A stretch of DNA of 64,000 nt from Candidatus Magasanikiibacteriota bacterium (GTDB lineage: Bacteria; Patescibacteriota; Patescibacteriia; Magasanikbacterales; UBA922), in the NCBI GenBank assembly GCA_003518365.1, contig DOYU01000021.1, positions 492 to 64,491 on the forward strand, given 5' to 3'. Both the position numbers and the translations under genes were made by a program. The notes below the pieces were generated by a model. The model had not been told where the DNA came from. It made no database searches and saw only the letters and a list, made by a program, of their open reading frames with translations. Positions 4,481 to 48,386 of the stretch are shown one piece after another (position 1 is the first letter of the stretch; each line of letters begins with the position of its first letter).

Positions 4481-5491
4481 ATGCCAAAACGGGTAGCCAC
4501 CCACATTTTCAAGGCCATCCAGGCAGCGAGAAAGATTCTCCTTGTGTCTCACAAAAATCCTGACGGAGACACGCTCGGATCTCTTGCTGCAATGATGCAA
4601 TACCTTCGCCATATCGAAAAACCACATGTGGCATTTTGTGCTACCGATATTTCTCCGTCACTGATGTTTTTGCCACACATCGACTATGTGACGCATACAC
4701 CGACCGTGTGGGATGATAAAGATATTGATCTCGTGATTGTATTTGATTCATCCAGTCCAGACTATGCTGGGGTAGAACACTTGCTCCCGATTATGAAAGA
4801 ACGTGGTGCACAGATCGCAAATATCGATCATCACAATACCAATCTTCAATATGGAGATTTCAACCTCGTCTTGCCAAAAGCAAGCTCAACGACAGAAATT
4901 GTCCATGACTTTTTTGCGCACAATAAAATAACCATCACACCAGCAATGGCAACATGCCTGCTCACTGGTATCATTACGGATACGGGGAATTTCACCAATG
5001 CAGCGACCACAAAACACTCGATGAATATTGCAAGCAAACTGATTGAAAAAGGCGGCAACATGGCACTCATTCAAGGATGGGTCCTGAAAGATAAGACTAT
5101 CAATGGACTCAAACTCTGGGGCACCGTACTCAGCAGAATGGCGCATCATGAAAAACTAGACATTGTCTACACGTATGTCACAAAAGAAGATATAGCAAAA
5201 CACGGCGTGACCGAACACGAAGTAGAAGGTATTGCAAACTTTATGAATAATATCAAAGATGGACGTGCTGGCATGATTCTAAAGGAAACAGAAGACGGCA
5301 ATTTCAAAGGGAGTTTTCGTACCACACATGATCATGTCGACGTCTCAGCTTTTGCAAAACTCTTTGGTGGCGGTGGACACAAAAAAGCAGCAGGCTTTTC
5401 TGTAGAAGGACCTATCGAACATGCACTCGAACATATCTTCGAAAAAATTCATCTTTTTGAGAATGGCGAACTTGCACTTGCTGAGGTGTAA
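4481..5491 (+). CDS. DHH/DHHA1 family phosphoesterase (NrnA-like oligoribonuclease / pAp phosphatase)
   Basis: Motifs HKNPDGDTLGS, DHH (NIDHHNTN) and the DHHA1 motif GGGGHKKAAGF. Confidence 0.85.
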   Translation: MPKRVATHIFKAIQAARKILLVSHKNPDGDTLGSLAAMMQYLRHIEKPHVAFCATDISPSLMFLPHIDYVTHTPTVWDDKDIDLVIVFDSSSPDYAGVEHLLPIMKERGAQIANIDHHNTNLQYGDFNLVLPKASSTTEIVHDFFAHNKITITPAMATCLLTGIITDTGNFTNAATTKHSMNIASKLIEKGGNMALIQGWVLKDKTINGLKLWGTVLSRMAHHEKLDIVYTYVTKEDIAKHGVTEHEVEGIANFMNNIKDGRAGMILKETEDGNFKGSFRTTHDHVDVSAFAKLFGGGGHKKAAGFSVEGPIEHALEHIFEKIHLFENGELALAEV

Positions 5492-5502
5492 CCATAAAAA
5501 CT

Positions 5503-5596
5503 CTCCCCCTAGTAGGGGGAGTTGGAGGGGGTTACCGCAGAAGCAAGAATAGTGGTAGTCCATAACCCCACCTTAATCCTCCCCTAGTAGGGGAGG
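5503..5596. repeat. Cluster of G/C-tract hairpins (CTCCCCCTAGTAGGGGGAG ... GGGGTTA/TAACCCC ... CCTCCCCTAGTAGGGGAGG)
   Basis: Two near-identical 19-nt perfect palindromes at 5503-5521 and 5578-5596 bracket a third inverted pair. Located in the 3' intergenic region after the DHH gene. Confidence 0.6.
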
Positions 5597-5610
5597 AAAT
5601 AATAAAAAAA

Positions 5611-5640
5611 CAACTCACAAAAAATGTGAGCTGTTTTTTT
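5611..5640. terminator. Bidirectional intrinsic terminator
   Basis: CAACTCACA-aaaaa-TGTGAGCTG stem with an A-run before and TTTTTTT after. It lies between convergent genes. Confidence 0.6.
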
Positions 5641-5776
5641 ATTTCAAAAGGTTTCGTCTTTTGTCTTATGCTGAGAAGACTCATCAGTCCAGATATCATC
5701 TGAAAACCTCAATGCGACCCTGCAACACGATACCGAAGCATCGTGGCAGAGTCGCTGCAAGAGAACGTGGGAGGCA

Positions 5777-6274
5777 CTAGTACAGGTAGCGCACCACCTC
5801 GAACGTCTCAATTGCGCCTGGTTGCGGCGCAATCGGGACGAACGCCGAGATGTGCACGCCACCTTCCAGCCCGTCGACTTGGAAGACGTAGTCTTCCGTG
5901 TCCATGGTGAGGAACGCCCCACCGTAGACACCACCGTCGCCGGTGACGCCGAAGACCTCGATCTCGAAGATCATTCCGGCGTAGACCTGTACGGGGATCT
6001 CGCCGACGAACTCGTACTCGAACAGCGCGATGTCCGGATCGATGGGATCCCAGACCTGTTGCGCAAAGCCTGCCTCGTCCACCACGGTCAGCCGACAGAC
6101 CGAGATGCACTCGACCCACGCCAAGGGCGGGGTGATGGTCTCATCGCTCGGCGTCGTCGTGTCCACCTGCTCGGGGCAGGCGGCCTGGACGGGCGCGAGG
6201 GTGTCGGAGTCGCAGGCGGCGGCGAGGGTCAGGGTCAGGGTCAGGGCGATGGTGGCGACGAAGAAGCTACGCAT
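5777..6274 (-). CDS. GC-rich predicted lipoprotein, paralog A (divergent)
   Basis: Start at ATG 6274 with GGAGG 6-7 nt upstream. Signal peptide plus lipobox: MRSFFVATIALTLTLTLAAAC. A sampled line is 62% GC. No recognisable family. Confidence 0.6.
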   Translation of the reverse strand: MRSFFVATIALTLTLTLAAACDSDTLAPVQAACPEQVDTTTPSDETITPPLAWVECISVCRLTVVDEAGFAQQVWDPIDPDIALFEYEFVGEIPVQVYAGMIFEIEVFGVTGDGGVYGGAFLTMDTEDYVFQVDGLEGGVHISAFVPIAPQPGAIETFEVVRYLY

Positions 6275-6423
6275 CGGAATCCTCCGGTGATGCGGTCTCA
6301 CGATGTACTTTACTACAGCATTTCTGCAGCAAGCACGATCGAATGAACCGCACCACCAACATGTTCTCTTGCATTGTAAAAAGCATGTCAAAAGAGGTAC
6401 TTGTGTCCTATTTTGAACGGCTG

Positions 6424-6452
6424 AATATAACATAAAAACACACTTTTGTCAA
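6424..6452 (-). promoter_or_regulatory. Candidate promoter for lipoprotein A (TTGACA-17-TATATT)
   Basis: On the reverse strand, TTGACA (6452-6447), a 17-nt spacer, then TATATT (6429-6424). Confidence 0.45.
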
Positions 6453-6461
6453 GTGTATAAC

Positions 6462-6553
6462 TAAAAAAATTGCCTTATGTTAGCAATTTTCTTCTTTTTT
6501 AGAAGTTTGCAAACAGTCGACGCAGCGCACTCCGAAGAGCGCGCCGCGTCGAC
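6462..6553 (-). terminator. Compound 3' element of lipoprotein B: GC hairpin with a CTC-TTCG-GAG apex, then an AT hairpin with a T-run
   Basis: GTCGACGC...GCGCGCTCTTCGGAGTGCGC...GCGTCGAC (6516-6553), followed on the reverse strand by AATTGC...GCAATT and TTTTTTT (6462-6489). The same architecture is repeated after lipoprotein C. Confidence 0.55.
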
Positions 6554-6565
6554 CGCGAAGAAAGA

Positions 6566-7099
6566 TCAGATGCCGTCTTGCCATCCGGGGTCGTAGACCA
6601 CTTGAATGGTGTACCTGCTCCCAGGTGTCCAGTCGTAGATGGGAAATCTCAGCTTTGGTGAGGTCTCGACACCATCATTGACTCGCAGGAGAAATTTGAA
6701 CATGAGGTTGTGGGACACGAGTTCGAGTGTCACACCGCCATTCATAGGGGGCGCGACCATCAGCTCGACCTCGATCTCTGCACCTTCAAGGAGCTGAAAA
6801 TCGAAGATCTCGTTACTCGCGAGATACTCATCGAGCGTAGGTCCCTCTTCATCACTCACATAGTACTCTCCATGAAAGAACCAAATGGGAGCGACCTCCC
6901 CATCCGGCAGGGTGACCGTCACCTTCCACACACCATTGGCCCAGAGAGAAGCGAAGGCTCCTTCTCCACCATAATGAAAGGTGATGCTTGGCTCAGAGGA
7001 ATCTTCCTCCTGCGGAATTTCCACATCTGGAAGGATGGTGGTGTCACAGCCGCCAGAGCTGTAGACGAAACCGAACAGAGCGAGAAAGATAAGTGCGTG
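6566..7099 (-). CDS. GC-rich predicted lipoprotein, paralog B
   Basis: Start at ATG 7099 (MHALIFLALFGFVYSSGGC, lipobox Cys) with GAGGT upstream. Clearly paralogous to 7377..7895: LDEYLASNEIFDFQLLEGAEIEVELMVAPPMNGG versus LDGYLAENEFLDFELTEGQTIHVELIESPPENGA. Confidence 0.65.
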   Translation of the reverse strand, partial: HALIFLALFGFVYSSGGCDTTILPDVEIPQEEDSSEPSITFHYGGEGAFASLWANGVWKVTVTLPDGEVAPIWFFHGEYYVSDEEGPTLDEYLASNEIFDFQLLEGAEIEVELMVAPPMNGGVTLELVSHNLMFKFLLRVNDGVETSPKLRFPIYDWTPGSRYTIQVVYDPGWQDGI

Positions 7100-7194
7100 C
7101 ATGAAATACCTCAGTGTGAATGCGACCATTCGTCAACGTACGGGACCACCCCGCACGTAAACGTATCAATCACATCCACATGACGTTGATCTTT

Positions 7195-7218
7195 CAAACG
7201 TATGATACCATACGTTTG
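7195..7218. promoter_or_regulatory. Perfect 10-4-10 palindrome CAAACGTATG-ATAC-CATACGTTTG at the predicted 5' end of the lipoprotein B transcript
   Basis: Read directly from the sequence. It lies about 10 nt downstream of the candidate -10 box, which is an operator-like or 5' stem-loop position. Confidence 0.4.
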
Positions 7219-7225
7219 ACAGTAA

Positions 7226-7253
7226 AAAATAGCAGAAAAAACAATTTTGTCAA
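7226..7253 (-). promoter_or_regulatory. Candidate promoter for lipoprotein B (TTGACA-16-TATTTT; weak -10)
   Basis: On the reverse strand, TTGACA (7253-7248). The surrounding about 50 nt (ttttgtcaagtgt..aaaaaattgcct.at.ttagcaatt) is conserved with 6440-6490. Confidence 0.3.
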
Positions 7254-7262
7254 GTGTCCAAA

Positions 7263-7363
7263 TAAAAAATTGCCTCATATTAGCAATTTCAAATATTTTT
7301 CAAAAGTGAAGCGAAGCGGCCGGCGCAGCGCTGCAACTCCGAAGAGTGCGCGCCACGCCGGTC
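7263..7363 (-). terminator. Compound 3' element of lipoprotein C (GC hairpin with CTC-TTCG-GAG apex, then AT hairpin with T-run)
   Basis: GGCCGGCG...CTCCGAAGAG...CGCCGGTC (7318-7363) and AATTGC..GCAATT plus a T-run (7263-7289). Same design as 6462-6553. Confidence 0.55.
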
Positions 7364-7376
7364 GCAAGGTGAGAGA

Positions 7377-7895
7377 TCAGGAGCAGGTGCCGTCCGGCAC
7401 GAGCTCCACGAAGTAGGCACGAGGTTCACCCACCGATGTGTAGATGGGCAGATAACACGTGGGCACTCCCCGGTTATTCGTGAACTGATACGCCTGTTGA
7501 TGGGAGACCAAGGTCATCTGCTCGGCACCATTCTCTGGTGGAGATTCGATGAGCTCGACATGGATGGTCTGTCCCTCTGTCAGCTCAAAATCCAGGAACT
7601 CATTCTCCGCCAGGTAGCCATCCAGCTTCCCGGCATCTTCATCAAGGACTTCGTACGGTCCAAGAGAGCGCCAAATCGAAGCAGCAGACCCGTCCGGATT
7701 AAGAACGCTGATCTCGCAGGCTCCTCGGCACCAAAAGGTTCCAAAGTTCTTCTCTCCGAGGTCATGCACTACAACTTTTGCGCCGTCTGCCTTCCCGACC
7801 TTTGGTGTGTCGGATATGCCCTCAATGTCCACATCGCAACCACCAATGAAGATGGCGACCAGCGCAAGAATCATGGTGATAATCGTGAGATGCAT
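7377..7895 (-). CDS. GC-rich predicted lipoprotein, paralog C
   Basis: Start at ATG 7895 with GGAGG 5 nt upstream. MHLTIITMILALVAIFIGGC gives a signal peptide and lipobox. Paralog of 6566..7099. Confidence 0.65.
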   Translation of the reverse strand: MHLTIITMILALVAIFIGGCDVDIEGISDTPKVGKADGAKVVVHDLGEKNFGTFWCRGACEISVLNPDGSAASIWRSLGPYEVLDEDAGKLDGYLAENEFLDFELTEGQTIHVELIESPPENGAEQMTLVSHQQAYQFTNNRGVPTCYLPIYTSVGEPRAYFVELVPDGTCS

Positions 7896-8007
7896 CGCGT
7901 CCTCCATAGAAGTATGAATACGACCATTCGTCAGCGTACGGGACCACCCCGAACACAAACGTATCTGCCGCATCCATACTTCTGTGATCTCTCAAAAATA
8001 TCATATC

Positions 8008-8032
8008 AAACTAGGAGTATTTTTCCTAGTTT
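8008..8032. promoter_or_regulatory. Inverted repeat AAACTAGGA-N7-TCCTAGTTT at the predicted 5' end of the lipoprotein C transcript
   Basis: 9-bp perfect arms, located just downstream of the candidate promoter at 8042-8070. Same position as the palindrome in the lipoprotein B leader, but a different sequence. Confidence 0.35.
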
Positions 8033-8041
8033 GAATAGATG

Positions 8042-8070
8042 AAGATAGCGTATTTTGCGACGTTTGTCAA
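8042..8070 (-). promoter_or_regulatory. Candidate promoter for lipoprotein C (TTGACA-17-TATCTT)
   Basis: On the reverse strand, TTGACA (8070-8065), a 17-nt spacer, then TATCTT (8047-8042). Confidence 0.4.
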
Positions 8071-8201
8071 TATATTAAATATCTGGCTGTATTGCTTACG
8101 CATGTTTCATTGTCAAATTGTTACATTGTTATATTGTTGATGATATTAAATAGATTGATATATGATAATTGTTATTTGCTATCTGAAATGTTAGCACTCT
8201 C

Positions 8202-8230
8202 TTGACAAGACTGATAATCTTCTCTATGCT
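8202..8230 (+). promoter_or_regulatory. Candidate promoter for clpP (TTGACA-17-TATGCT)
   Basis: TTGACA 8202-8207, 17-nt spacer, TATGCT 8225-8230. Confidence 0.45.
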
Positions 8231-8284
8231 ATACTTCTTTACATAATCTATTTCTAGTTACCAGTTACTGGTTCCTAGTCCCCT

Positions 8285-8875
8285 ATGTTTATGCATTCTC
8301 AATACCTCATCCCAACCGTCATCGAAAAAACATCACACGGTGAACGTGCATACGATATTTACTCTCGCCTTTTGAAAGATCGCATTATTTTTCTTGGCAG
8401 CGCGATCGATGACGGCGTCGCAAATACCATCATCGCTCAGCTCCTCTTCCTGGCAAATCAAGACGCGGAAAAAGATATCAAACTCTATATCAACTCCCCT
8501 GGTGGATCCGTCACCGCAGGTATGGCCATCTACGACACCATGCAATTTGTAAAACCACATGTTTCGACGATTTGTATCGGCATGGCAGCAAGTATGGGAT
8601 CAGTCCTCCTCGCAGCAGGAGAAAAAGGAAAACGTTTTGTCCTCCCAAATAGTGAAGTGATGATTCATCAAGTCCTCGGTGGGACACAAGGGCAAGCAAG
8701 TGATATTCAGATTCATGCAGAACGCATTGTCAAAATGAAAAAACATCTGAATGAAATTCTTGCAAAACACTGTGGCCAAACATTTGAAAAAGTAGAAAAA
8801 GACGCAGACCGAGATTACTTCATGAGTGCGGAAGAAGCTGTGACATACGGACTTGTGGACAAAGTTATATCGTAG
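8285..8875 (+). CDS. clpP: ATP-dependent Clp protease proteolytic subunit
   Basis: Full-length ClpP signature: [19 protein letters not shown], catalytic Ser context GMAASMG, and MIHQ.LGG. Confidence 0.95.
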
Positions 8876-9175
8876 TTCACGAGTCACTTAACACGTAGCA
8901 CGAAACAATCTTACTCTGAACGGGAGGAAACCTTGCCAGGCAAGACTACGCTTCGCTAAGATTATGTTTCACCTACGGTGAAACAAGATTGAAGATTACT
9001 TCACAAAAAGAAGGACATGCATGATATGCATGTCCTTCTTAGCATGTAACATAATCTTCAATCTTTTTTGCCGTAAGGCAAAAGTAATCTTAGTGGAGCG
9101 AAGCGAAACGCAATCTTACGTTGCACTAGGACACACGTTGTCACATACTATGTGACTCGTGTCTCGTGAACTACG
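8871..9175. repeat. 305-bp imperfect palindrome filling the clpP/permease convergent intergenic region
   Basis: 13-nt terminal inverted repeats CGTAGTTCACGAG (8871-8883) and CTCGTGAACTACG (9163-9175), each containing the TAG stop codon of the adjacent gene. Mirrored internal blocks: CGCTTCGC-TAAGATTA, small hairpins with CCTACGG/CTTACGG loops, AAGATTGAAGATTA. Central 14-bp hairpin AGAAGGACATGCAT/ATGCATGTCCTTCT at 9010-9039. Confidence 0.7.
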
Positions 9176-10364
9176 TGAACAAAACAAACACACTATACAC
9201 TGCTCCAACAGTCAACACGAGCAAGAGCAATGCACCAAGGAGTGCGATATGATGCAATTTATATTTTCCAGGATCAAGATCACCCAATTTTTTTGCGCGC
9301 CAATAAATCAGAAGAATGAGCAACATCTCAATACTACCAAACACACCACCGACAATATTGATCGCGGCAACAAATTGTCGAAGACCTAATAAAAAAATGA
9401 TACAAGGAATACCAAGTGTCACCACCGTCGCAATGCGCCCACTCATATGATAATCCCATGACAGTGAATCTTTGAGCGATACACCATTGAGCAAAAAGCT
9501 GGTCGCCATGGCAAAGAATGCAAACGCATTGCCAAACAAAAACAACGTGTGGCCGAGCCTATTGCCAAGGCCTATCGTTGCAATTTCTGTTGTCCCCTGT
9601 CCTGTCACCCCTACAACGACGAGCGCAAATGTCAGATACAGCGCCATGACGAGCAACCCTCCTATGAGGATCGCGCGACGAAATGCTCCGTTATCATCTT
9701 TCAAAAGGGCATGTATCTCAGGCACTGCTGTCGTACCATGGAGAGAAAATAAGACCACACCATAGGGAAGAAAGAGATAGGCAAGATTTGTGGTATAGAG
9801 ATGGGTGATGTCAATATGTGGCACACTCAGTGACGTGATAAACAACACAATCACCAAAATGCCAATGGTGAGAATCAGTTCAGCGGTCTTCACAGTGCGA
9901 AGCCCGAGCATCACAAGGAGTGCTGCGAATACAAAGAACACCAGACTCCACTCTACGCTACTGCCCCCAAAGAGCGCAGCAAGCGTTTCCCCTTCTCCAA
10001 TCAGATAAATCACGAGCGCGCCAAACAGCATGCCATACATCATGACGGTCATGATCATCCCGCCTGCCTTTCCTAAATATTTTTTTGCAAACCCAACGAG
10101 CTGAAACGACCCATGTGTTCTCACTGCGACTTCGCCAAGCATGAGATTCAGTCCGATCATAAGCGCGCCTAAGCCAATAATATAGAGCACCCCAATCAAC
10201 ACACCCGCTTGTGCTACAGCATAGGGCAATCCGAGCACTCCAGCACCGATCGTCCCACTGATCATGAGTGCAACGCCTTCAGCCATAGAAAGTTTGCGTC
10301 GAAAAATTCCTTGATGCATGGCAAGGTCTGTGATTTCTAGTTGTGGGCGTTTTCGAAAGAACAT
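9171..10364 (-). CDS. Amino acid permease (Trp/Tyr-type or Aa_trans-like, about 11 TM helices)
   Basis: Polytopic membrane protein with LSMAEGVALMISGTIGAGVLGLPYAVAQAG near the N-terminus. The start is ambiguous: ATG 10364 or ATG 10319. Confidence 0.7.
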   Translation of the reverse strand: MFFRKRPQLEITDLAMHQGIFRRKLSMAEGVALMISGTIGAGVLGLPYAVAQAGVLIGVLYIIGLGALMIGLNLMLGEVAVRTHGSFQLVGFAKKYLGKAGGMIMTVMMYGMLFGALVIYLIGEGETLAALFGGSSVEWSLVFFVFAALLVMLGLRTVKTAELILTIGILVIVLFITSLSVPHIDITHLYTTNLAYLFLPYGVVLFSLHGTTAVPEIHALLKDDNGAFRRAILIGGLLVMALYLTFALVVVGVTGQGTTEIATIGLGNRLGHTLFLFGNAFAFFAMATSFLLNGVSLKDSLSWDYHMSGRIATVVTLGIPCIIFLLGLRQFVAAINIVGGVFGSIEMLLILLIYWRAKKLGDLDPGKYKLHHIALLGALLLLVLTVGAVYSVFVLFT

Positions 10365-20983: not shown

Positions 20984-21047
20984 AGCGCGTCCCTCCCTTC
21001 ACGAAGGGAGGGATATATCGTATAGTGTGTATCAAACAGGAGGGGCT

Positions 21048-21296
21048 ATGTTCTATACCTACCTATTGCAAAGTACAAAGGACAACAATTTTTATATTGG
21101 ATCAACGACGGATTTAAAAAGAAGATTCACCGAACATAACGATGGGAAAGTTTCTTCAACAAAATTTCGTCGTCCAATGAAATTGGTATATTACGAAGCC
21201 TATCCAGAAGAACATCTGGCACGAGTACGCGAACAAAAATTAAAAGATTTTGGTTCAGCATACACAGCACTATTAAAAAGATTAGGGTATAAATAA
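21048..21296 (+). CDS. Small GIY-YIG nuclease family protein (UPF0213/YhbQ-like)
   Basis: MFYTYLLQSTKDNNFYIGSTTDLKRRFTEHN carries the GIY..YIG and R..H motifs. ATG 21048 is preceded by AGGAGGGG. Confidence 0.85.
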   Translation: MFYTYLLQSTKDNNFYIGSTTDLKRRFTEHNDGKVSSTKFRRPMKLVYYEAYPEEHLARVREQKLKDFGSAYTALLKRLGYK

Positions 21297-21321
21297 TATA
21301 GATATATAGTACGTTGTATAG

Positions 21322-21351
21322 TGGCTTGTCCCTGCCTTTCGCGAAAGGCGG
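21322..21351 (+). repeat. Right copy of the direct repeat flanking the GIY-YIG gene
   Basis: TGGCTTGTCCCTGCCTTTCGCGAAAGGCGG. Confidence 0.7.
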
Positions 21352-21411
21352 GATAAATACTGTGGTCTTCAAAAGAAGATGAGGCAAACAAAAAAATGCA
21401 TATACATACAT

Positions 21412-21482
21412 GGGCGCATCGTATAGTGGTAGTACATTGGTCTCCAAAACCAATTGCGTGGGTTCGATTCCTACTGCGCCTG
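21412..21482 (+). tRNA. tRNA-Trp (anticodon CCA)
   Basis: Folded by hand into a cloverleaf: acceptor GGGCGCA/TGCGCCT, anticodon stem TTGGT/ACCAA, loop CTCCAAA, T-arm GTGGG-TTCGATT-CCTAC. CCA is not encoded. Confidence 0.9.
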
Positions 21483-21538
21483 CACTGGAAAACATACCAA
21501 AAATAAGGTATGTTTTTATAGATAATAGAATAAACGAT

Positions 21539-21973
21539 ATGAAAAAAATAACCATCTCCCCCATGCCGACAATAGATTTTCTCTACATATTTTTTGCAGG
21601 TCTTTTGGGGGCAATCAGCTTCGGCATTGTATTTGGACTCATTGGTCTCTTGTTTGCAGATTATCTCGGCTTTCCACTCGCGGTAGGATCTGAAGAATTT
21701 ATGATGGGAGCTAGCATGATCTTCTACAGTACGCTTGCAATACCAGTCGGCGCATATATTGGATGCCTCAAAACTGCAAAATATTTATCATATACAACAA
21801 AAGACCTATACTCTTATTTTACAGGGTTTGTCCTTATTGCGATTGGATTATTTTTGAAAGATTATGTAAGTGTCTATTCATTGCTAGCATTCGGTGCAGT
21901 CAGTGCATTGGTCTTTGCAATGGTAATGGGGGTCTCTGCAAGCAAATCACAAAAGTCTGACATGACAAAATAG
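21539..21973 (+). CDS. Hypothetical small membrane protein (4 TM helices)
   Basis: ATG 21539 (MKKITISPM...). The track ORF start at 21410 overlaps the tRNA, so it is rejected. Hydrophobic segments throughout. Confidence 0.5.
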   Translation: MKKITISPMPTIDFLYIFFAGLLGAISFGIVFGLIGLLFADYLGFPLAVGSEEFMMGASMIFYSTLAIPVGAYIGCLKTAKYLSYTTKDLYSYFTGFVLIAIGLFLKDYVSVYSLLAFGAVSALVFAMVMGVSASKSQKSDMTK

Positions 21974-22063
21974 GTCAAATCGATTTAATCGTTATTCATA
22001 TCCAGCCCCAAGCTGAATTTTGAAGTATCGTTCCAAGTGCGTCTCACAACGCATGCTAACAAG

Positions 22064-22092
22064 ATAAGACTTACCCTAGTCTTATTTTTTTT
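22064..22092 (+). terminator. Intrinsic terminator
   Basis: ATAAGACT-taccct-AGTCTTAT followed by TTTTTTTT. Confidence 0.65.
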
Positions 22093-22176
22093 ACCAAAAA
22101 TTGGATAATGTTTCTATAATAATATACTATATATGATAATCAAGAATATATTATTCAAGATTAATAGATATAGATT

Positions 22177-22827
22177 ATGTATAGAAAAGGAGAAGTCATA
22201 GGTGTCGGGAATGACAAACGCATATATGCTGACGCAATAACTCCTGAGACAAGAGTTATTGCTGAATTTCGCAAGGAACAAACACCTGAAGAAATAAAGA
22301 GTGTGTACTATCTTGGGAACATAGCTCATATATTATTCCCTCAAAATGTACCCAAAGTATATGAAGCAGGGATGCATCCACAAGAACATACGAAAGTAGA
22401 AAGAAAAAAGGTGGATGTCAATCATAAAAATACGGCTGATCTCATGGTGACATACGAAGATTATTTCATGGGAGATGGTGAAACGGGACCTTCTTCAGAA
22501 GAAGATAGTGAGATGGATGTAGATATAGAAAAAAAAGAAACCGATCCAAGAGTAAAACAACTTTTAACAAAAGCGTCTTCTGTCGGATTATATTTTGATA
22601 CAGGCGGACAAAATTTTTCTTTTGACGATTTGGGTACTGTCCAATATCTTGAAGTGAATCCAGCATTTCATATAGAAAAAAACCACGTCCGTTTGCACTT
22701 CAACGAAAGCAAATTAAGAGATGCCATACAAGCATTAGAAAATGAAAAAGAGAAAAAAAAGGCTACACTATATTTCGAACGATTGATGTCTTTGATCCAA
22801 GTAGCACAAAATAATCTTATACAATAG
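22177..22827 (+). CDS. Hypothetical protein; possible atypical kinase-like fold (YrbL-like); weak
   Basis: Glycine-rich loop-like VIGVGNDKRIY near the N-terminus and LYFDTGGQNFSF resembling a kinase catalytic loop, read by eye only. Very AT-rich. Confidence 0.45.
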   Translation: MYRKGEVIGVGNDKRIYADAITPETRVIAEFRKEQTPEEIKSVYYLGNIAHILFPQNVPKVYEAGMHPQEHTKVERKKVDVNHKNTADLMVTYEDYFMGDGETGPSSEEDSEMDVDIEKKETDPRVKQLLTKASSVGLYFDTGGQNFSFDDLGTVQYLEVNPAFHIEKNHVRLHFNESKLRDAIQALENEKEKKKATLYFERLMSLIQVAQNNLIQ

Positions 22828-22913
22828 TTCCAACTTCCTCCTTCCTCTACGATCCCCTGCACCTCCTGCAGTAGCTCCTGCCGGCAGGCAGGTTAGCGAA
22901 GGCACGGCACTTG

Positions 22914-22948
22914 AAAAACAGAGTGAAAAACACTCTGTTTTTCTTTTT
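22914..22948 (+). terminator. Intrinsic terminator
   Basis: AAACAGAGTG-aaaaa-CACTCTGTTT followed by a T-rich run. Confidence 0.65.
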
Positions 22949-23002
22949 GACATGAAGGGAAGAACGGAGTATTGTACAAGTAAACATATACATTATATTG
23001 GT

Positions 23003-23212
23003 ATGGCTCATCAAAAAAATACAATCGGAAAAAACATCAAACGATTACGGCAAGAACAAAAAATTTCCCAAGATCGTCTTTCAAAACTTGCGGATCTTTC
23101 TTTGAATACTATTGTTACCGTTGAAAGTGGCGCAAACGAAAATCCTACTATTGATACGCTCACAAGGATTGCGAAAGCGTTTCAAGTTGGCGTGGATGAC
23201 CTCATAACATAA
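23003..23212 (+). CDS. XRE-family helix-turn-helix transcriptional regulator (69 aa)
   Basis: IGKNIKRLRQEQKISQDRLSKLADLSLNTIVTVESG is a canonical HTH_3. Start set at ATG 23003. Confidence 0.85.
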   Translation: MAHQKNTIGKNIKRLRQEQKISQDRLSKLADLSLNTIVTVESGANENPTIDTLTRIAKAFQVGVDDLIT

Positions 23213-23220
23213 CACCCACT

Positions 23221-24198
23221 ATGTCTAAACAAACACCTACCAATAATCTCGCTATCTACCAAGCTAAAAACGGCGCGATTGAATTTCGCGGTGATTTTGA
23301 GCAAGAGACGGTTTGGGGAAATTTAAATCAAATTGCCGATCTTTTTGGTCGCGACAAGTCCGTTGTTTCCCGCCATATAAAAAACATCTATAAAACAGGC
23401 GAATTAAACGAAACGGCAACTGTTGCAAAAATTGCAACAGTTCAAAAGGAAGGAAGGAGAGAAGTGATGCGTGAAATTGAGTACTTCAACCTTGATGTTA
23501 TTTTGTCCGTTGGGTACAGAGTAGATTCCAAGCAAGCCACGCAATTCCGCAAATGGTCAACGCAAGCGCTCAAGGCACACCTTGTAGACGGGTATACCAT
23601 CAACAAAAAACGCATCGGTAATAACTACGAACACTTTTTGCGTGCAGTGGCAGAAACAAAAGCACTCCTCCCTGTGGGCAACAAGGTTTCTACCGAGGAT
23701 ATACTTGAACTCGTGAACGCATTTGCTGCTACGTGGTTTTCGCTCGATGCATATGACAAAGACGCATTTCCTCAAAAAACAGCCTCAAAAAAGTCAGTTT
23801 CAGTTGACACTGTAAAGCTACTCAATGCGATTGGTGAGTTGAAGCAAGAACTGATAACCAAAAAGCAAGCAACAAACCTATTTGCACAAGAAAGGAAGAC
23901 GGGAACAGTAGAAGGAATCGTCGGAAATGTATTTCAGTCTGCCTTTGGCAAAGATGTATATCCAAGTATAGAAGAAAAGGCCGCACACATCCTCTACTTC
24001 ATGGTAAAAAATCATCCATTCACCGATGGCAACAAGCGCAGCGGAGCCTTTGCATTTGTTTGGTTTCTACGAAAAGCTGGTTTACTCCGACCAAGTCTTA
24101 CTCCAGAAGCGTTGACTGCCATTACCCTCCTCATTGCAGAGAGTAATCCAAAAGATAAAGACAAAATGGTGGGACTAGTGGTGATGTTAATCAAATAA
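23221..24198 (+). CDS. RhuM-family N-terminal domain fused to a Fic/Doc domain
   Basis: N-terminus: QIADLFGRDKSVVSRHIKNI ... YFNLDVILSVGYRVDSKQATQFRKW, the RhuM family pattern. C-terminus: HPFTDGNKRSGAF, which matches the Doc-type core HxFx[DN][GA]NKR. Confidence 0.8.
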   Translation: MSKQTPTNNLAIYQAKNGAIEFRGDFEQETVWGNLNQIADLFGRDKSVVSRHIKNIYKTGELNETATVAKIATVQKEGRREVMREIEYFNLDVILSVGYRVDSKQATQFRKWSTQALKAHLVDGYTINKKRIGNNYEHFLRAVAETKALLPVGNKVSTEDILELVNAFAATWFSLDAYDKDAFPQKTASKKSVSVDTVKLLNAIGELKQELITKKQATNLFAQERKTGTVEGIVGNVFQSAFGKDVYPSIEEKAAHILYFMVKNHPFTDGNKRSGAFAFVWFLRKAGLLRPSLTPEALTAITLLIAESNPKDKDKMVGLVVMLIK

Positions 24199-24200
24199 CT

Positions 24201-25322
24201 ATGGCAAATAAAAACCTTACAAAAGCAAAAAAGGCAAAAAATGATGAATTTTATACTCAATTTTCAGATATTCAAAAAGAAGTTGAGTCTTATCTTGAGT
24301 ATAACCCAGATACTTTTAAAGATAAGATAATTTACAGTAATTGTGACGACCCGTTCGAAAGTAATTTCTTTCGCTATTTTGTATTAAATTTTGATCGTTT
24401 AGGACTAAAGAGACTTATTTCAACGAGCTACAAACCCTCACCTGTTGCCAATACGCAACTGGGATTATTTGGCGATGACAAAACACTTGAAAAAGTAAAA
24501 GGCCGTCCAAAAGTAACCGCTAACAAATTCATCATCAACGAAGTTGGCGATATCGACGGCGACGGCTCTTTTACGCTAGAAGATATTGCCCAACAGCTTC
24601 GAGCGAATAAAAATAACGAATGGACTCCGCTTGAGGGCGATGGTGATTTTAGAAGTGCCGAATGTGTCGAGTTGCTCAAACAATCTGACATCGTAGTTAC
24701 TAATCCTCCATTTAGTTTATTCCGTGAATATATTACGCAACTTTTCGAACACAAAAAGCAATTTCTAATTATTGGTAGCATGAACTCAATTACTTACAAA
24801 GAAATCTTTGTGTTGATTAAAAATAATAAATTGTGGTTAGGTAATGGGTTTAATGCTGGCAATGCATATTTTTCAACTCCCAATGCGCGAAAAGATTTTG
24901 CTTCTGGTGTGTATGATGAAAAAACTGGTCTTGTAAAATTTCGGAATTGTCATTGGTTTACTAATTTAGATCATGGTCGTCGTCATCAGCCTCTTAATCT
25001 GATGACAACAAATGAAAACCTAAGATTTAATAAAAAAATGCAAGGCAAAACTACTTATGATCGTTATGACAATTATGACGCTATTGATGTACCATTTACA
25101 AAAGCTATCCCTTCTGACTACGAAGGAGTAATGGGTGTTCCTATAAGCTTTCTCGATAAGTACAATCCTAATCAGTTTGAGATATTGGGCTCTGACACAG
25201 ACATAAAAGAAGGTAAACTTCCACTTTTAATAATAAGTAAATGGAATGGAAAGCTAGACAGAGGTTATATACATGGAAAGAGAATCTTCAGTAGAATGTT
25301 TATTAAGCACAAAAAGAAATAA
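24201..25322 (+). CDS. N6-adenine DNA methyltransferase, EcoRI-methylase family
   Basis: N-terminal [16 protein letters not shown]...[18 protein letters not shown] and catalytic motif [12 protein letters not shown]. It begins 2 nt after the previous stop codon. Confidence 0.8.
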
Positions 25323-25323
25323 T

Positions 25324-26487
25324 ATGAAAACAACCTTAAAAAATGATATCACCGTTAAAGAAGTTTGCGACGGCTTTGAATACAACGAATTTGAAGGAAA
25401 AGGTTTGTTTGGTCTCTCTGGCAAACTAACTATTCAGCCAGAGTATCAGCGTAATTATATTTATGCTGACGGCAAACGTGACGTTGCTGTAATTGACTCA
25501 ATTTTAAAGGGTTATCCTATCGGTTTGATCTATTTCAATCAGGCTGGTAAAGACGAGTTTGAAGTATTAGATGGTCAACAGCGCATCACGAGTATAGGTC
25601 GTTTTGTTACTGGCAAATTTGCTGTTAAAGATAAAAACGGTCACGAGCAATACTACAGCGGTATGTCTGAGAGTCAGCGTGAGCAAATTATGAAGACTAA
25701 GTTGTTGGTGTATGTGTGCGAAGGTGACGAGCCTGAGATCAAAGATTGGTTCAAGACTATTAACATTGCTGGAGTGCCATTAACTGAACAAGAGATTCTT
25801 AACGCGGTATATTCTGGGCCATTCGTTACTCGAGCTCGTGAAGAGTTTAGTAATAGTCAAAATACCAACATCCAGAAATGGAGTGCGTACATCGCAGGTG
25901 ATATCAAGCGTCAGGCATACTTGGAACGAGCTCTAGATTGGGTTTCTGATGGATCAATCGATAGTTATATGAGCAAACACCGCAATGACAAAAATATTAC
26001 TGAACTAAAAAAACATTTTGATACTATCATTGACTGGGTCTCAACTATCTTTACTGACGTTGAGAGCGATATGAAAGGCCTTGAGTGGAACAGGATTTAT
26101 GAGACATATCACAAGAAGAAATACAATCCGACTACCATCTCTGCTTCTGTTCAGAAGCTCTATGCTGATGGTTTCGTAAAAAGTCGCAAAGGCATTTTTG
26201 AATATGTTTTAGGCGGAGAAGTTGAAACTAAACTACTTGAAATACGAGTATTTGAGGACTCAACAAAACGTTCAGTTTACGAAGCTCAAACTGCTATTGC
26301 AAAGAAAAAAGGTGTTTCAAACTGTCCACATTGTGCTATTGGGCATGATGCCAATAAAGAAAAAATTTGGACTTTAAGCGATATGGATGCTGATCATGTG
26401 GCTGCTTGGAGTAAAGGTGGAAAAACGGAAGCAAAAAACTGTGAGATGTTGTGTAAAACGCATAATCGTGCCAAAGGTAATCGGTAA
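25324..26487 (+). CDS. DUF262 (ParB/GmrS-like NTPase) fused to an HNH endonuclease
   Basis: N-terminus: IQPEYQRNY ... [10 protein letters not shown], the DUF262 hallmark. C-terminus: CPHCAIG...[12 protein letters not shown]...[15 protein letters not shown], the HNH motif. Start set at ATG 25324, 1 nt after the methyltransferase stop codon. Confidence 0.8.
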
Positions 26488-26493
26488 AATATT

Positions 26494-29219: not shown

Positions 29220-29220
29220 C

Positions 29221-30999: not shown

Positions 31000-31010
31000 T
31001 TATTAAACAT

Positions 31011-31223
31011 ATGGAAAGAAAACCAGTACAATCATCAAATCTTGCTGCTATTGGATATGATCCTTTGACAGAAACTTTGGAGGTGGAATTCACAGATGGG
31101 TCTGTCTATGAGTATAAGAACGTCTCTCAATTTATATACGATGAGCTGATGAATGCTTCGTCTCATGGTTCTTATTTTAATAGAGAAATCAGTAAAAGTT
31201 TTCCGTATGAGAAAATAGGTTAA
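31011..31223 (+). CDS. KTSC domain protein (70 aa)
   Basis: VQSSNLAAIGYDPLTETLEVEFTDGSVYEYKNV matches the KTSC pattern (SSN...GYD...L.V.F..G..Y.Y..V). Confidence 0.75.
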   Translation: MERKPVQSSNLAAIGYDPLTETLEVEFTDGSVYEYKNVSQFIYDELMNASSHGSYFNREISKSFPYEKIG

Positions 31224-31401
31224 ATATGAAATAGGATTGTTTGAGGGAGGGGCAATTCTCCTTTTTGATTCCCCTCTTCCCCCTCCCCCAAACCAGAAAT
31301 AGAAGTTTTGAATGAATAGAATTAATTGGATACAATTGGACGTAGTTAATATATCCAAAAACCAATAATCTGTTATACTTTCATAGAAGTATCATTCTCA
31401 C

Positions 31402-43065: not shown

Positions 43066-43066
43066 T

Positions 43067-44905: not shown

Positions 44906-44916
44906 GACTGAATGGT

Positions 44917-45627: not shown

Positions 45628-45685
45628 TTTTTTGTGAATATACTAGGTAAAAAATTAGAGTTTACGAGGATCATTTGTTGAACGT

Positions 45686-46894: not shown

Positions 46895-46952
46895 CACATT
46901 TTGATTGATGTATACATATACTTGACTTTTTCTGATATTTCATACAGTATAG

Positions 46953-47013
46953 AAGTATACTTACTTCTCTGGACTTCCGATTTCTACCACAAATTCACAG
47001 AGTATAGTATACT
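46953..47013. promoter_or_regulatory. Two palindromic AGTATACT boxes upstream of hicB (candidate autoregulatory operators)
   Basis: AAGTATACTT at 46953-46962 and AGTATACT at 47006-47013, 52 bp apart centre to centre. Half-site-like AGTATAG motifs lie adjacent to each. Confidence 0.35.
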
Positions 47014-47036
47014 TAAAAAGTACGTAAACATTTTAT

Positions 47037-47354: not shown

Positions 47355-47359
47355 ACCAT

Positions 47360-47620: not shown

Positions 47621-47630
47621 AAACACAGTT

Positions 47631-47924: not shown

Positions 47925-47943
47925 TGATTACCTCCAATAACTT

Positions 47944-48375: not shown

Positions 48376-48386
48376 GGTGACTCTCC

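What the first reader, a model, noticed from the sequence alone, without database searches (positions are those of the whole stretch)
5640..8075. Three tandem GC-rich lipoprotein cassettes with conserved promoter, leader and 3' hairpins in a low-GC genome
Genes 5777..6274, 6566..7099 and 7377..7895 all encode proteins of about 170 aa with a signal peptide and lipobox Cys. B and C are clear paralogs, and A is more distant. A sampled line inside A is 62% GC against roughly 40% elsewhere. The non-coding parts are also duplicated between units B and C. These include a roughly 50-nt block around the -35 box and AT terminator (6440-6490 versus 7240-7290), and a roughly 45-nt leader block (GATACGTTT...CGGGGTGGTCCCGTACG.TGACGAATGGTCG.ATTCA). 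They also include a GC-rich 3' hairpin capped by CTC-TTCG-GAG. So whole expression cassettes of about 0.8 kb were duplicated in tandem, most simply after acquisition from a high-GC donor. Surface lipoproteins under duplication are candidates for host or partner interaction in a small-genome organism.
Basis: partly seen in the sequence, partly recalled or inferred. Interest (0 to 1): 0.6.

Follow-up and report, generated by a model that had tools for sequence, protein, structure and literature searches.

The report
Tandem structured lipoprotein cassettes, one with ribozyme
A groundwater Candidatus Magasanikbacteria genome carries one to three tandem, unusually GC-rich copies of a self-contained gene unit for an orphan lipoprotein, each with conserved RNA hairpins at both ends, and the oldest unit also has a probable self-cleaving hammerhead ribozyme; the proposed foreign origin has no direct support.

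Summary
Three minus-strand genes (C 7377-7895, B 6566-7102, A 5777-6274) encode 165-178 aa proteins with lipobox-like signals. GC3 is 0.61-0.87, against 0.38±0.08 for 42 other genes in the window.

Each gene is its own transcription unit. The order is a sigma-70-like promoter, a 5'-terminal hairpin, a long leader hairpin next to the Shine-Dalgarno site, the ORF, a GC-rich CUUCGG-capped hairpin and an AT-rich terminator. Non-coding modules are better conserved than the coding sequences and show compensatory changes.

Relatives carry one, two or three cassettes at the same clpP-DHH locus, so tandem cassette duplication is supported.

Acquisition from a high-GC donor is not supported. No homologue was found outside this clade. 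A is co-inherited with its neighbours (dS 0.35 versus 0.30). Polarisable third-position changes are balanced, not decaying towards AT.

New here: the 3' UTR of A (5648-5710, minus strand) holds a complete type III hammerhead core. It has four compensatory stem changes between haplotypes but scores below Rfam's threshold.

The protein fold and function remain unknown.

The parts
8042..8070 (-). Promoter of cassette C (TTGACA, 17 nt spacer, TATCTT)
   Evidence: matches 10 of 12 consensus positions. It is one of the three best minus-strand sites.
8006..8034 (-). 5'-terminal hairpin of the C transcript (UCAAACUAGGA...UCCUAGUUUGA), starting about 7 nt after the -10 box
   Evidence: -14.5 kcal/mol, z -6.8. 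The stem covaries with the B copy (CAAACGUAUG/CAUACGUUUG).
7905..7986 (-). Long leader hairpin of C, ending 1 nt before the SD (GGAGG 7901-7905)
   Evidence: -42.2 kcal/mol, z -4.0; compensatory pairs; 99 bits with model R1.
7377..7895 (-). Gene C: 172-aa predicted lipoprotein (lipobox IGGC), GC3 0.624
   Evidence: Identical protein P0001 is found in 18 contigs.
7316..7365 (-). GC-rich 3' hairpin of C, capped CUCUUCGGAG
   Evidence: -38.1 kcal/mol, z -4.3; covariation.
7262..7290 (-). AT-rich hairpin plus T-run (AAATTGC...GCAATTTTTT): intrinsic terminator of C
   Evidence: Sequence. 92% identical to the copy at 6464-6489. It was not picked up by the scan, which needs at least 3 G-C pairs.
7226..7253 (-). 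Promoter of cassette B (TTGACA, 16 nt spacer, TG-TATTTT)
   Evidence: matches 10 of 12 positions, with an extended -10.
7194..7219 (-). 5'-terminal hairpin of the B transcript
   Evidence: -13.8 kcal/mol, z -5.3; inverted repeat I8.
7108..7186 (-). Long leader hairpin of B, overlapping the SD (GAGG 7109-7112)
   Evidence: -50.1 kcal/mol, z -5.0; 103 bits.
6566..7102 (-). Gene B: 178-aa predicted lipoprotein (lipobox SGGC), GC3 0.609
6513..6556 (-). GC-rich 3' hairpin of B, capped CUCUUCGGAG
   Evidence: -41 kcal/mol, z -6.9..
6463..6490 (-). AT-rich terminator of B
   Evidence: repeat D3.
6424..6452 (-). Promoter of cassette A (TTGACA, 17 nt spacer, TG-TATATT)
   Evidence: matches 11 of 12 positions, the best site in the region. 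Conserved in L010 and L014.
6388..6416 (-). 5'-terminal hairpin of the A transcript
   Evidence: -7.6 kcal/mol. The L010 copy is -11.9 kcal/mol, where a C>A change repairs the mismatch.
6286..6357 (-). Long leader hairpin of A, ending at the SD (GGAGG 6281-6285)
   Evidence: -53.1 kcal/mol, z -5.7. In L010 the outer stem is kept and the inner part is replaced by other pairing sequence. Model R1 gives 20 bits here and 32 bits in L010.
5777..6274 (-). Gene A: 165-aa predicted lipoprotein (lipobox LAAAC), 64.5% GC, GC3 0.867
   Evidence: Orthologues at 77-81% aa identity in L010 and L014, with dN/dS 0.31-0.37.
5714..5755 (-). 3' hairpin of A, capped GCUUCGGU; 42 nt, invariant in all 8 retrieved copies
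   Evidence: 18 pairs, none vary.
5648..5710 (-). Candidate type III hammerhead ribozyme. Stem III is GAGGU/ACCUU and H17 is U5705, so predicted cleavage falls between 5705 and 5704. Stem I is UUCAGAU/AUCUGGA, the core is CUGAUGA, stem II is GUCUU/AAGAC, followed by GAA.
   Evidence: Rfam RF00008 scores 21.7 bits here and 29.9 bits in L010, below the gathering score of 48.5. There are 4 compensatory pairs in stems I and III, with the core unchanged apart from one singleton, G8>U in L001. My descriptor scan found one hit in the window, and hits in 2 of 300 random 64-kb sequences.
5601..5643 (.). Bidirectional AT-rich terminator shared by gene A and the convergent DHH gene
   Evidence: inverted repeat I2 (19-nt arms, 95% complementary)..

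Best explanation
This is a lineage-restricted family of autonomous lipoprotein expression cassettes. It lies in a variable spot between clpP and a DHH-family phosphoesterase gene of a Candidatus Magasanikbacteria species group (candidate phyla radiation).

An ancestral cassette had this order: sigma-70-type promoter, 5'-terminal hairpin, long leader hairpin abutting the ribosome-binding site, lipoprotein ORF, CUUCGG-capped GC-rich hairpin, AT-rich terminator. It gave rise to the A type and the B/C/D type. Unequal homologous recombination between the conserved non-coding modules then changed copy number between strains (1, 2 or 3).

The proteins evolve about ten times faster, by dN/dS, than neighbouring housekeeping genes. 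The RNA structures in the untranslated regions are held by selection.

Inferred mechanism:
- The hairpins are mRNA-level elements.
- The 5'-terminal stem-loop and the 3' UUCG hairpin protect the message from end-dependent ribonucleases.
- The long leader helix is a processing or translation-control element, possibly an RNase III-type substrate.
- In cassette A, a hammerhead ribozyme cuts the transcript 9 nt after the 3' hairpin. This removes the terminator tail and leaves a hairpin-capped end with a 2',3'-cyclic phosphate.

The high GC of the transcribed parts is a maintained local property in at least two lineages, not simply a decaying foreign signature.

Shown by these analyses: the anatomy, the conservation, the covariation, the copy-number variation and the compositional statistics. 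Inferred only: expression, lipidation, ribozyme activity and the stabilising role.
For: Architecture: the three best minus-strand promoter matches each sit one per cassette. All 5' hairpins start about 7 nt after the -10 box. Leader hairpins have z-scores of -4.0 to -5.7 and 3' hairpins -4.3 to -6.9.

RNA-level selection: the leader has 42 predicted pairs, 3 of them compensatory. The 3' hairpin has 20 pairs, 3 compensatory. Invariant G-U pairs work only on the sense strand. Model R1 scores about 100 bits on the sense strand and 26 bits antisense.

Non-coding versus coding identity among B, C and D: leader, 3' hairpin and terminator are 69-81% identical, and the CDS 55-62%. The 42-nt 3' hairpin of A is invariant although dS is 0.35-0.47.

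Shared ancestry of A and B/C/D: leader model hits, hhalign E=4.7e-4, and a shared W..C-x3-C..[IV]-[ST]-V...G....W motif.

Copy number and recombination: relatives carry 1, 2 or 3 cassettes. In L007, gene C is followed by a hybrid hairpin, C-type at its 5' side and B-type at its 3' side. L010 and L014 have identical hammerhead and terminator sequence but only 81% identical CDS.

Real coding genes: dN/dS is 0.31-0.37 for A, against 0.02-0.04 for DHH and ClpP, and GC3 shows codon periodicity.

Hammerhead. The same core and stem II sequence occurs in at least 120 viral contigs.

GC maintenance.
Against: - No expression, lipidation or cleavage data exist.
- Structure predictions failed (pLDDT 41.7 and 40.1), so the protein function is unknown.
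- Covariation rests on only 3-4 B/C/D-type sequences and 2 hammerhead haplotypes.
- The hammerhead scores below Rfam's gathering threshold. Its window copy does not fold to the ribozyme shape as the minimum-energy structure. One metagenomic copy (L001) carries G8>U in the core.
- B and C lack a Lys or Arg in the signal-peptide n-region when read from the SD-supported start codons.
- The homology between A and B/C is only suggestive.
- The stabiliser role is an analogy to the E. coli ompA 5' hairpin, Bacillus 5' stem-loops and REP-type 3' hairpins (my own knowledge). It has not been tested in candidate phyla radiation bacteria.
- The 18:1 GC>AT bias on the L014 branch is compatible with amelioration of a foreign gene.
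Confidence: 0.6

Rival explanations
1. One reading: the cassettes, or at least their GC-rich transcribed parts, were imported from a high-GC donor (bacterium or phage) and then duplicated. The GC excess is a foreign signature that has not yet ameliorated.
For: - GC1, GC2 and GC3 are all raised (A: 0.645/0.422/0.867, against about 0.53/0.36/0.38).
- The GC-rich stretch runs from leader to 3' hairpin, while promoters and terminators are 29% GC, like an insert placed in native expression slots.
- The layout is moron-like.
- Hammerheads are frequent in phage contexts (PMC3088659).
- The L014 branch shows 18 GC>AT to 1 AT>GC at third positions.
Against: - No homologue of B/C outside this clade in 5.8 billion or 1.84 billion proteins. 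For A, only the word-indexed search was run, and it returned clade members only.
- Nothing in IMG/VR, INPHARED or PHROGs.
- No integrase, tRNA or phage genes flank the locus.
- A is syntenic in three lineages, with dS similar to its neighbours.
- Substitutions are balanced (7:8) on two branches where about 10:1 is expected (P≈1.5e-5).
Confidence: 0.25
2. The conserved B/C/D leader is a ligand- or protein-sensing regulatory RNA (a riboswitch-like or autoregulatory element), not a passive stability or processing hairpin.
For: - The 31-nt core is identical between B and C although the proteins are only 37% identical.
- Bulged and loop nucleotides are conserved (GAUA, GUGGU).
- The base of the hairpin touches or overlaps the SD.
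Against: - No Rfam family matches at E≤10.
- The fold is a single extended helix with no multi-helix junction.
- Loop and bulge sequences change in D (GUGGU>GCAGU, GAAUGG>GUCUGG).
- The A leaders keep the helix but swap the inner sequence.
- A conserved leader peptide is excluded, because compensatory stem changes give GVVP>RAVL and there is no common start codon (my reading).
Confidence: 0.15
3. The hammerhead-like sequence downstream of A is a chance or decayed motif with no catalytic role. The conserved stems serve some other structure.
For: - The score is below Rfam's gathering threshold (21.7 and 29.9 bits, against 48.5).
- Thermodynamic stability is weak (z -0.4 and -0.9), and the window copy has an alternative minimum-energy fold.
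- L001 has G8>U and L009 has a stem II mismatch.
- There are only two haplotypes.
Against: - All invariant core positions and the three junction lengths are exact.
- Nine substitutions in stems I and III all preserve pairing, and 4 are double changes.
- Only 2 of 300 random windows give any descriptor hit.
- The same core and stem II recurs in at least 120 viral contigs. Five of those loci, scanned whole, also gave no Rfam match at gathering thresholds.
Confidence: 0.2
4. The GC-rich block is an assembly chimera or is non-coding, and the ORFs are artefacts of high GC.
For: - GenBank GCA_000998635.1 calls an antisense 164-aa ORF where A lies.
- One contig (L006) ends in 108 nt of unrelated GC-rich sequence.
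- Long ORFs exist on both strands.
Against: - The same 3-kb sequence is 100% identical in several independent assemblies from NCBI and Logan (L002-L005), and variant or partial copies occur in ENA and JGI contigs.
- Orthologues occur in syntenic contigs of other strains.
- dN/dS is below 0.4 in the proposed frame.
- GC3 is far above GC2 in that frame.
- Promoter, SD, signal peptide and lipobox are all in register.
Confidence: 0.02

Closest known systems
Phage 'morons' (autonomous promoter-gene-terminator units such as lambda bor and lom; concept from Hendrix and colleagues, my own knowledge)
   Same: A single gene is bracketed by its own sigma-70-type promoter and intrinsic terminator. Base composition differs sharply from the neighbours. 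The products are often lipoproteins or surface proteins.
   Different: There is no prophage context: the flanks are clpP, a DHH phosphoesterase gene and SMC. No phage homologues were found. The units are arrayed in tandem and are vertically inherited within the clade.
Variable surface lipoprotein gene families of Mollicutes (Mycoplasma vsp, vlp, vsa; my own knowledge)
   Same: A small-genome organism carries tandem paralogous lipoprotein genes. The 5' non-coding region and signal peptide are better conserved than the fast-diverging mature part. Copy number differs between strains.
   Different: There are no homopolymer or invertible-promoter switches: promoter spacers are a constant 16-17 nt across strains. 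The coding regions contain no internal repeats. There is no sequence homology. The GC-rich composition and the structured UTRs are not features of those families.
Hammerhead ribozyme, type III (Rfam RF00008), and phage hammerheads that flank single genes (Perreault et al. 2011, PMC3088659)
   Same: The full catalytic core is present, with three stems in type III connectivity, and it lies in an intergenic position just after a gene. That paper reports hammerheads flanking individual genes in prophages and proposes that they process transcripts into single-gene mRNAs.
   Different: The score is below Rfam's gathering threshold. The copy is single, chromosomal and not in a prophage. It sits between an invariant UUCG hairpin and a terminator in a lipoprotein 3' UTR. 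Stem I has a short loop. Activity is untested.
mRNA-stabilising terminal hairpins (E. coli ompA 5' stem-loop, Bacillus 5' stem-loops that block RNase J, REP-type 3' hairpins; my own knowledge)
   Same: A stem-loop is predicted at or within a few nt of the 5' end, and a very stable GC-rich, UUCG-capped stem-loop follows the stop codon.
   Different: Transcript ends are predicted, not mapped. There is an additional 26-bp leader helix of unknown role. Nothing is known about RNA decay in candidate phyla radiation bacteria.

Membership tests
Hammerhead ribozyme (type III) | Catalytic core C3-U4-G5-A6-N7-G8-A9 between stems I and II, and G12-A13-A14 between stems II and III | tested here: met
   CUGAUGA and GAA are present with exact junction lengths in the window and in L010. 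They are unchanged in 7 of 8 copies; L001 has G8>U.
Hammerhead ribozyme (type III) | A15.1-U16.1 pair, cleavage-site nucleotide H17 not G, and closing pairs N10.1-N11.1 and N1.1-N2.1 (rejection criteria of PMC3088659) | tested here: met
   A-U is present, H17 is U, 10.1-11.1 is G-C, and 1.1-2.1 is U-A.
Hammerhead ribozyme (type III) | Three helices supported by covariation, with stem III open | tested here: met
   There are 17 pairs. Stems I and III are 100% paired and stem II 96.7% (one L009 mismatch). 4 pairs are compensatory and 1 changes G-U>A-U between the two haplotypes. Only two haplotypes are available.
Hammerhead ribozyme (type III) | Score at or above Rfam RF00008's gathering threshold (48.5 bits) | tested here: not met
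   21.7 bits in the window and 29.9 bits in L010. Five phage loci that contain canonical-looking hammerheads, scanned whole, also gave no Rfam match at gathering thresholds.
Hammerhead ribozyme (type III) | Site-specific self-cleavage | not testable with these tools
   Needs in vitro transcription and cleavage mapping.
Bacterial lipoprotein (Lgt/LspA substrate) | N-terminal hydrophobic signal peptide followed by a lipobox [LVI][ASTVI][GAS]C | tested here: inconclusive
   A (L-A-A-C) and C (I-G-G-C) fit the strict pattern. B (S-G-G-C) and D (S-S-G-C) fit only the looser PROSITE-style pattern. B and C lack Lys or Arg in the n-region from the SD-supported start. No SignalP or LipoP tool was available.
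Bacterial lipoprotein (Lgt/LspA substrate) | Presence of lgt and lspA in the genome | not tested
   Not looked for; only a 64-kb window was available.
Phage moron | A single gene with its own promoter and terminator, and composition unlike its neighbours | tested here: met
Phage moron | Located within a prophage or phage genome | tested here: not met
   Neighbours are SMC, DHH, ClpP, a permease, and PurA/PurB-like genes. No viral hits were found.
Integron gene cassette | Promoterless ORF followed by an attC site, with intI and attI nearby | tested here: not met
   Each unit has its own strong promoter match. No integrase gene was called within ±6 kb. The 3' hairpins are near-perfect UUCG-capped helices and do not look like bulged attC sites.
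Diversity-generating retroelement target | A variable repeat at the 3' end of the gene, a matching template repeat, and a reverse transcriptase | tested here: not met
   No second copy of any part of A, B or C exists elsewhere in the 64-kb window. Divergence is spread along the genes. The window was not searched for a reverse transcriptase.

The most novel reading that the evidence does not exclude
These cassettes may be a previously undescribed kind of self-contained expression module in candidate phyla radiation bacteria. In this reading, fast-evolving surface lipoproteins are produced from messages that are end-protected and ribozyme-trimmed (5'-terminal hairpin, conserved leader helix, invariant UUCG clamp and hammerhead). 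The GC richness is actively maintained by selection for RNA structure or by biased gene conversion at a recombination hot spot. The B/C/D leader would then be a new cis-regulatory RNA class.
Probability: 0.2. Interest if true: 0.7.

Novelty: new variant of a known kind. Interest (0 to 1): 0.5.

Why it matters
Candidate phyla radiation bacteria are mostly uncultured, and almost nothing is known about how they control gene expression or what they display on their surface.

This locus gives a compact, testable example of three things:
- An orphan, rapidly diverging lipoprotein family whose copy number differs between co-occurring strains.
- Untranslated-region RNA structures under clear purifying selection.
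- A probable hammerhead ribozyme used for 3'-end processing of a chromosomal mRNA.

It also shows that a strong GC3 anomaly need not mean recent horizontal transfer, because here the anomaly looks maintained in two lineages.

If the ribozyme and hairpins work as proposed, they could also serve as parts for expression constructs in these organisms.

Tried and rejected
- Rfam: a gathering-threshold scan of the whole window gave only 3 tRNAs. A scan of 5400-8400 at E≤10 found nothing on the leaders or on the B/C 3' regions.
- Pfam, NCBIfam, PHROGs and PDB sequence or profile searches of A-D gave nothing meaningful.
- The HMMER profile of B+C against 1.84 billion representatives returned only the proteins themselves plus giant repetitive proteins. 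Those matched through summed short stretches, and I judged them spurious after Pfam and BLASTP checks.
- AlphaFold2 models of mature C and A had pLDDT 41.7 and 40.1, so I ran no fold search because it would be meaningless.
- An exact-match scan of metagenome contigs for the leader core gave 0 hits. In hindsight the D leader differs inside that core.
- The leader-peptide idea was rejected: there is no common start codon, and compensatory RNA changes give non-conservative amino-acid changes.
- Phase-variation switches were rejected: promoter spacers are constant and there are no long homopolymers or invertible repeats.
- Integron and diversity-generating-retroelement readings were rejected (see the membership tests).
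- A's relation to B/C could not be settled by sequence alone.
- Literature searches for Magasanikbacteria plus lipoprotein, and for hammerhead plus candidate phyla radiation, returned nothing.
- The second GC-rich gene, 41211-42287, has different flanks and no Pfam hit, so I treated it as unrelated.

Full report
**Source and context**

The proteins encoded by B and C are 100% identical to hypothetical proteins UV82_C0014G0010 and G0011 of Candidatus Magasanikbacteria bacterium GW2011_GWD2_4x, a candidate phyla radiation (CPR) bacterium. The three genes lie on the minus strand. On one side is a DHH/DHHA1 phosphoesterase gene (4481-5491, plus strand, preceded by SMC). On the other is clpP (8285-8875, plus strand).

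**Check of the observation**

The ORFs, their sizes and the lipobox cysteines are as described, except that B starts at 7102, not 7099.
- B and C are clear paralogues: 37% identity, E=1e-31.
- A is not significantly similar to either by BLASTP.
- The window is 42.7% GC. A, B and C are 64.5, 53.1 and 54.5% GC.
- GC3 is 0.867, 0.609 and 0.624, against 0.378±0.081 in 42 other ORFs. Only one other ORF (41211-42287) reaches 0.62. The anomaly is therefore real and lies largely at synonymous positions.
- The duplicated non-coding blocks, the near-identical 31-nt leader core and the two CTCTTCGGAG-capped hairpins are all present and far beyond chance.

**Anatomy**

Each gene is an autonomous unit. The three best sigma-70-like matches on the minus strand fall one per cassette: 8070-8042, 7253-7226 and 6452-6424. 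Two have an extended -10.

About 7 nt after each -10 box a hairpin begins (UCAAAC.../...GUUUGA in C, B and D; UCAAAA... in A). This would put a stem-loop at the very 5' end of the transcript.

A long imperfect helix of about 26 bp follows and ends at or overlaps the Shine-Dalgarno sequence (z -4.0 to -5.7).

After each stop codon comes an 18-20 bp GC-rich hairpin with a CUUCGG cap (z -4.3 to -6.9). An AT-rich hairpin with a T-run follows.

GC content alternates accordingly:
- about 29% in the terminator and promoter spacers
- about 50% in the leaders
- 53-65% in the coding sequences
- 62-77% in the 3' hairpins

**Relatives**

Searching with the neighbouring DHH protein and with an alignment of A found syntenic loci in other Magasanikbacteria assemblies and JGI metagenomes.
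- L010, L015 and L016 (DHH 99% aa identical) have only cassette A, plus a ParE/HigB-type toxin-antitoxin pair.
- L013 and L014 (DHH 83% nt identical) have two cassettes, a new B/C-family member 'D' (47% identical to C) and A. L001 is a short contig of the same lineage that starts in A's leader, so its upstream content is unknown.
- The window has three cassettes and no toxin-antitoxin pair.
- In L007, gene C is followed by a hairpin that starts like C's and continues like B's. This is what a crossover between the repeated 3' modules would produce.
- L010 and L014 have 100% identical hammerhead and terminator sequence but only 81% identical A coding sequence. The leader of A is 87% identical between the window and L014 but 66% between the window and L010, so the cassette is a recombinational mosaic.

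**Selection on the RNA structures**

Among B, C and D, the leader, 3' hairpin and terminator are 69-81% identical. The coding sequences are 55-62% identical.

RNAalifold predicts 42 leader pairs, 3 of them with compensatory double changes: G-C>A-U in the outer stem, and A-U>G-C and G-C>A-U in the apical stem. It predicts 20 pairs in the 3' hairpin, also with 3 compensatory. Several G-U pairs are invariant, so the structures make sense only on the sense strand, that is, in the mRNA.

A covariance model of the B/C/D leader scores about 100 bits on its own members. It scores 32 bits (E≈5e-7) on the A leader of L010, and 20 and 17 bits on the A leaders of the window and L014. These are the best non-self hits in 93 kb.

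Three observations together make it likely that A and B/C/D descend from one ancestral cassette, although this is not proven:
- the leader model hits on the A leaders
- the colinear profile-profile match (E=4.7e-4, probability 33%)
- a shared W..C-x3-C..[IV][ST]V...G....W motif

**The proteins**

No Pfam, NCBIfam, PHROG or PDB relative was found.

For B/C, the word-indexed 5.8-billion-cluster search and the exhaustive 1.84-billion-representative HMMER search found nothing credible beyond the proteins themselves. A was put through the word-indexed search only, which returned two clade members. AlphaFold2 with two-sequence alignments gave all-beta but unreliable models (pLDDT about 41).

A is a real gene under purifying but relaxed selection. 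Its dN/dS is 0.31-0.37, against 0.021 for DHH and 0.043 for ClpP. Its dS between the window and L010 (0.35) is like DHH's (0.30), which indicates co-inheritance with the neighbourhood.

**Origin of the GC excess**

There is no donor-side evidence: no homologues in any collection, no phage hits, and no integrase or tRNA at the borders.

I polarised substitutions by three-taxon parsimony.
- The window and L010 terminal branches of A show 23 GC>AT to 22 AT>GC overall, and 7 to 8 at third positions.
- A neutral sequence with GC3 0.86 drifting to this genome's 0.38 should show about 10:1 (P≈1.5e-5 for the observed split).
- In these two lineages the high GC therefore behaves as if at equilibrium. 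It is maintained by selection or biased conversion.
- The long, unpolarisable branch to L014 shows 18:1, with L014 being AT-richer. This could be decay in L014 or enrichment in the other stem.

I conclude that horizontal acquisition is possible but ancient and unsupported, and that a simple fresh-import reading is contradicted.

**A hammerhead ribozyme candidate**

Between A's invariant UUCG hairpin (5714-5755) and the bidirectional terminator (5601-5643) lies 5648-5710 (minus strand):

GAGGU-U|UUCAGAU-GAU-AUCUGGA-CUGAUGA-GUCUU...AAGAC-GAA-ACCUU

This is a complete type III hammerhead. It has stem III with the A15.1-U16.1 pair, H17 = U, stem I, the CUGAUGA core, stem II closed by G-C, and GAA.

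Rfam RF00008 is the top or near-top hit in targeted scans but stays below its gathering score of 48.5 bits. It gives 21.7 bits in the window and 29.9 bits (E=7.5e-5, full-length model) in L010.

The two haplotypes differ by nine substitutions in stems I and III. All nine keep pairing: four are double compensatory changes and one is G-U>A-U. The core is unchanged, apart from one singleton (G8>U in L001), and stem II differs only by one singleton mismatch (in L009).

My own descriptor scan found exactly one site in the 64-kb window on both strands. It found hits in only 2 of 300 first-order Markov random windows.

The same core plus stem II sequence (CUGAUGAGUCUUUG...AAGACGAAA) occurs in at least 120 IMG/VR contigs as type I hammerheads directly after stop codons. 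Five such loci, scanned whole, also gave no Rfam match at gathering thresholds. Perreault et al. (PMC3088659) describe bacterial and phage hammerheads that flank single genes. Their acceptance criteria are met here.

Caveats:
- Thermodynamic support is weak.
- Two singleton variants exist (G8>U in L001 and a stem II mismatch in L009).
- Only two haplotypes are available.
- Activity is untested.
- Cassettes B, C and D lack the motif.

**Most likely mechanism (inferred)**

The cassettes produce monocistronic, end-protected mRNAs.
- The 5'-terminal stem-loop would hinder 5'-end-dependent decay.
- The UUCG hairpin would block 3' exonucleases.
- The long leader helix, whose length suits an RNase III-type enzyme, could be a processing or translation-tuning site.
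- In A, hammerhead cleavage 9 nt after the hairpin would remove the U-rich terminator tail.

The conserved non-coding modules double as substrates for unequal recombination, which sets copy number. The exposed mature parts of the proteins diverge quickly.

What the lipoproteins bind or do is unknown. A role at the cell surface of an episymbiont is plausible but has no evidence here.

**Comparison and verdict**

The units resemble phage morons in layout and Mollicute variable-lipoprotein families in evolutionary pattern, but they are members of neither. The ribozyme is a probable new member of the hammerhead class in an unusual setting.

Overall this is a real, well-structured and moderately interesting locus. 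The duplication inference is supported. The high-GC-donor inference is not supported.

Noticed in passing
The core is complete, four stem pairs are compensatory between haplotypes, and the score is below Rfam's threshold.
   Followed up: yes
window 5495-5605; L010 10392-10500; L014 about 4830-4940: A roughly 105-nt element is bounded by two G/C-rich palindromes (CTCCCCCTAGTAGGGGGAG and CCTCCCCTAGTAGGGGAGG). In this window it lies between DHH and cassette A. In relatives it lies on the other side of A and in the opposite orientation. It looks like a small mobile (MITE-like) or structured-RNA element. It has no Rfam match and occurs once in the window.
   Followed up: partly
L010 about 9050-9530; L001 750-1234; L014 6601-7070; starts of the same module at the ends of L011 and L012: Relatives carry a ParE/HigB-like toxin gene and a small partner gene between cassette A and DHH (Pfam marks). 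This window lacks the pair. The clpP-DHH interval is therefore a variable hot spot.
   Followed up: partly
L007 6529-6618 (ENA k141_606909): In a variant strain, gene C (identical protein) is followed by a 3' hairpin that begins like C's and continues like B's, and the contig then ends. This suggests a crossover between cassette flanks, which could have deleted B. The promoter region upstream of C also differs there.
   Followed up: partly
L002 7562-8056 (GCA_000998635.1), compared with L003 7634-8131 (GCA_003488405.1): One GenBank annotation of this genome calls a 164-aa ORF on the opposite strand where gene A lies. Another calls the 165-aa lipoprotein frame. GC3, dN/dS and the signal peptide support the lipoprotein frame.
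   Followed up: yes
L006 7331-7438 (GCA_001000125.1, contig end): The last 108 nt of this contig replace the end of gene B with unrelated, very GC-rich sequence. This is probably a chimeric assembly end.
   Followed up: no
window 41211-42287 (minus strand): This is the only other GC-rich ORF in the window: 358 aa, 53.9% GC, GC3 0.616. It has no Pfam match. It has its own long terminator hairpin, and its flanks are unlike those of the lipoprotein cassettes.
   Followed up: partly
window about 21000-31500 and 43000-48500: Two long stretches have clearly lower GC than the rest of the window (0.30-0.40 against about 0.44). Gene GC3 falls as low as 0.19-0.28 there. These may be separate compositional islands.
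   Followed up: no
L017-L096 and further loci (IMG/VR viral contigs): At least 120 viral contigs carry CUGAUGAGUCUUUG(N)AAGACGAAA followed by a hairpin and UC. These look like type I hammerheads placed right after stop codons. None of five such loci reached any Rfam gathering score.
   Followed up: partly
L001 about 688-695; L009 about 1136-1140: Two single-copy variants of the hammerhead occur in metagenome contigs: G8>U in the core (CUGAUUAG) in L001, and a U>C change that breaks one stem II pair in L009. They may be sequencing errors or decay.
   Followed up: no
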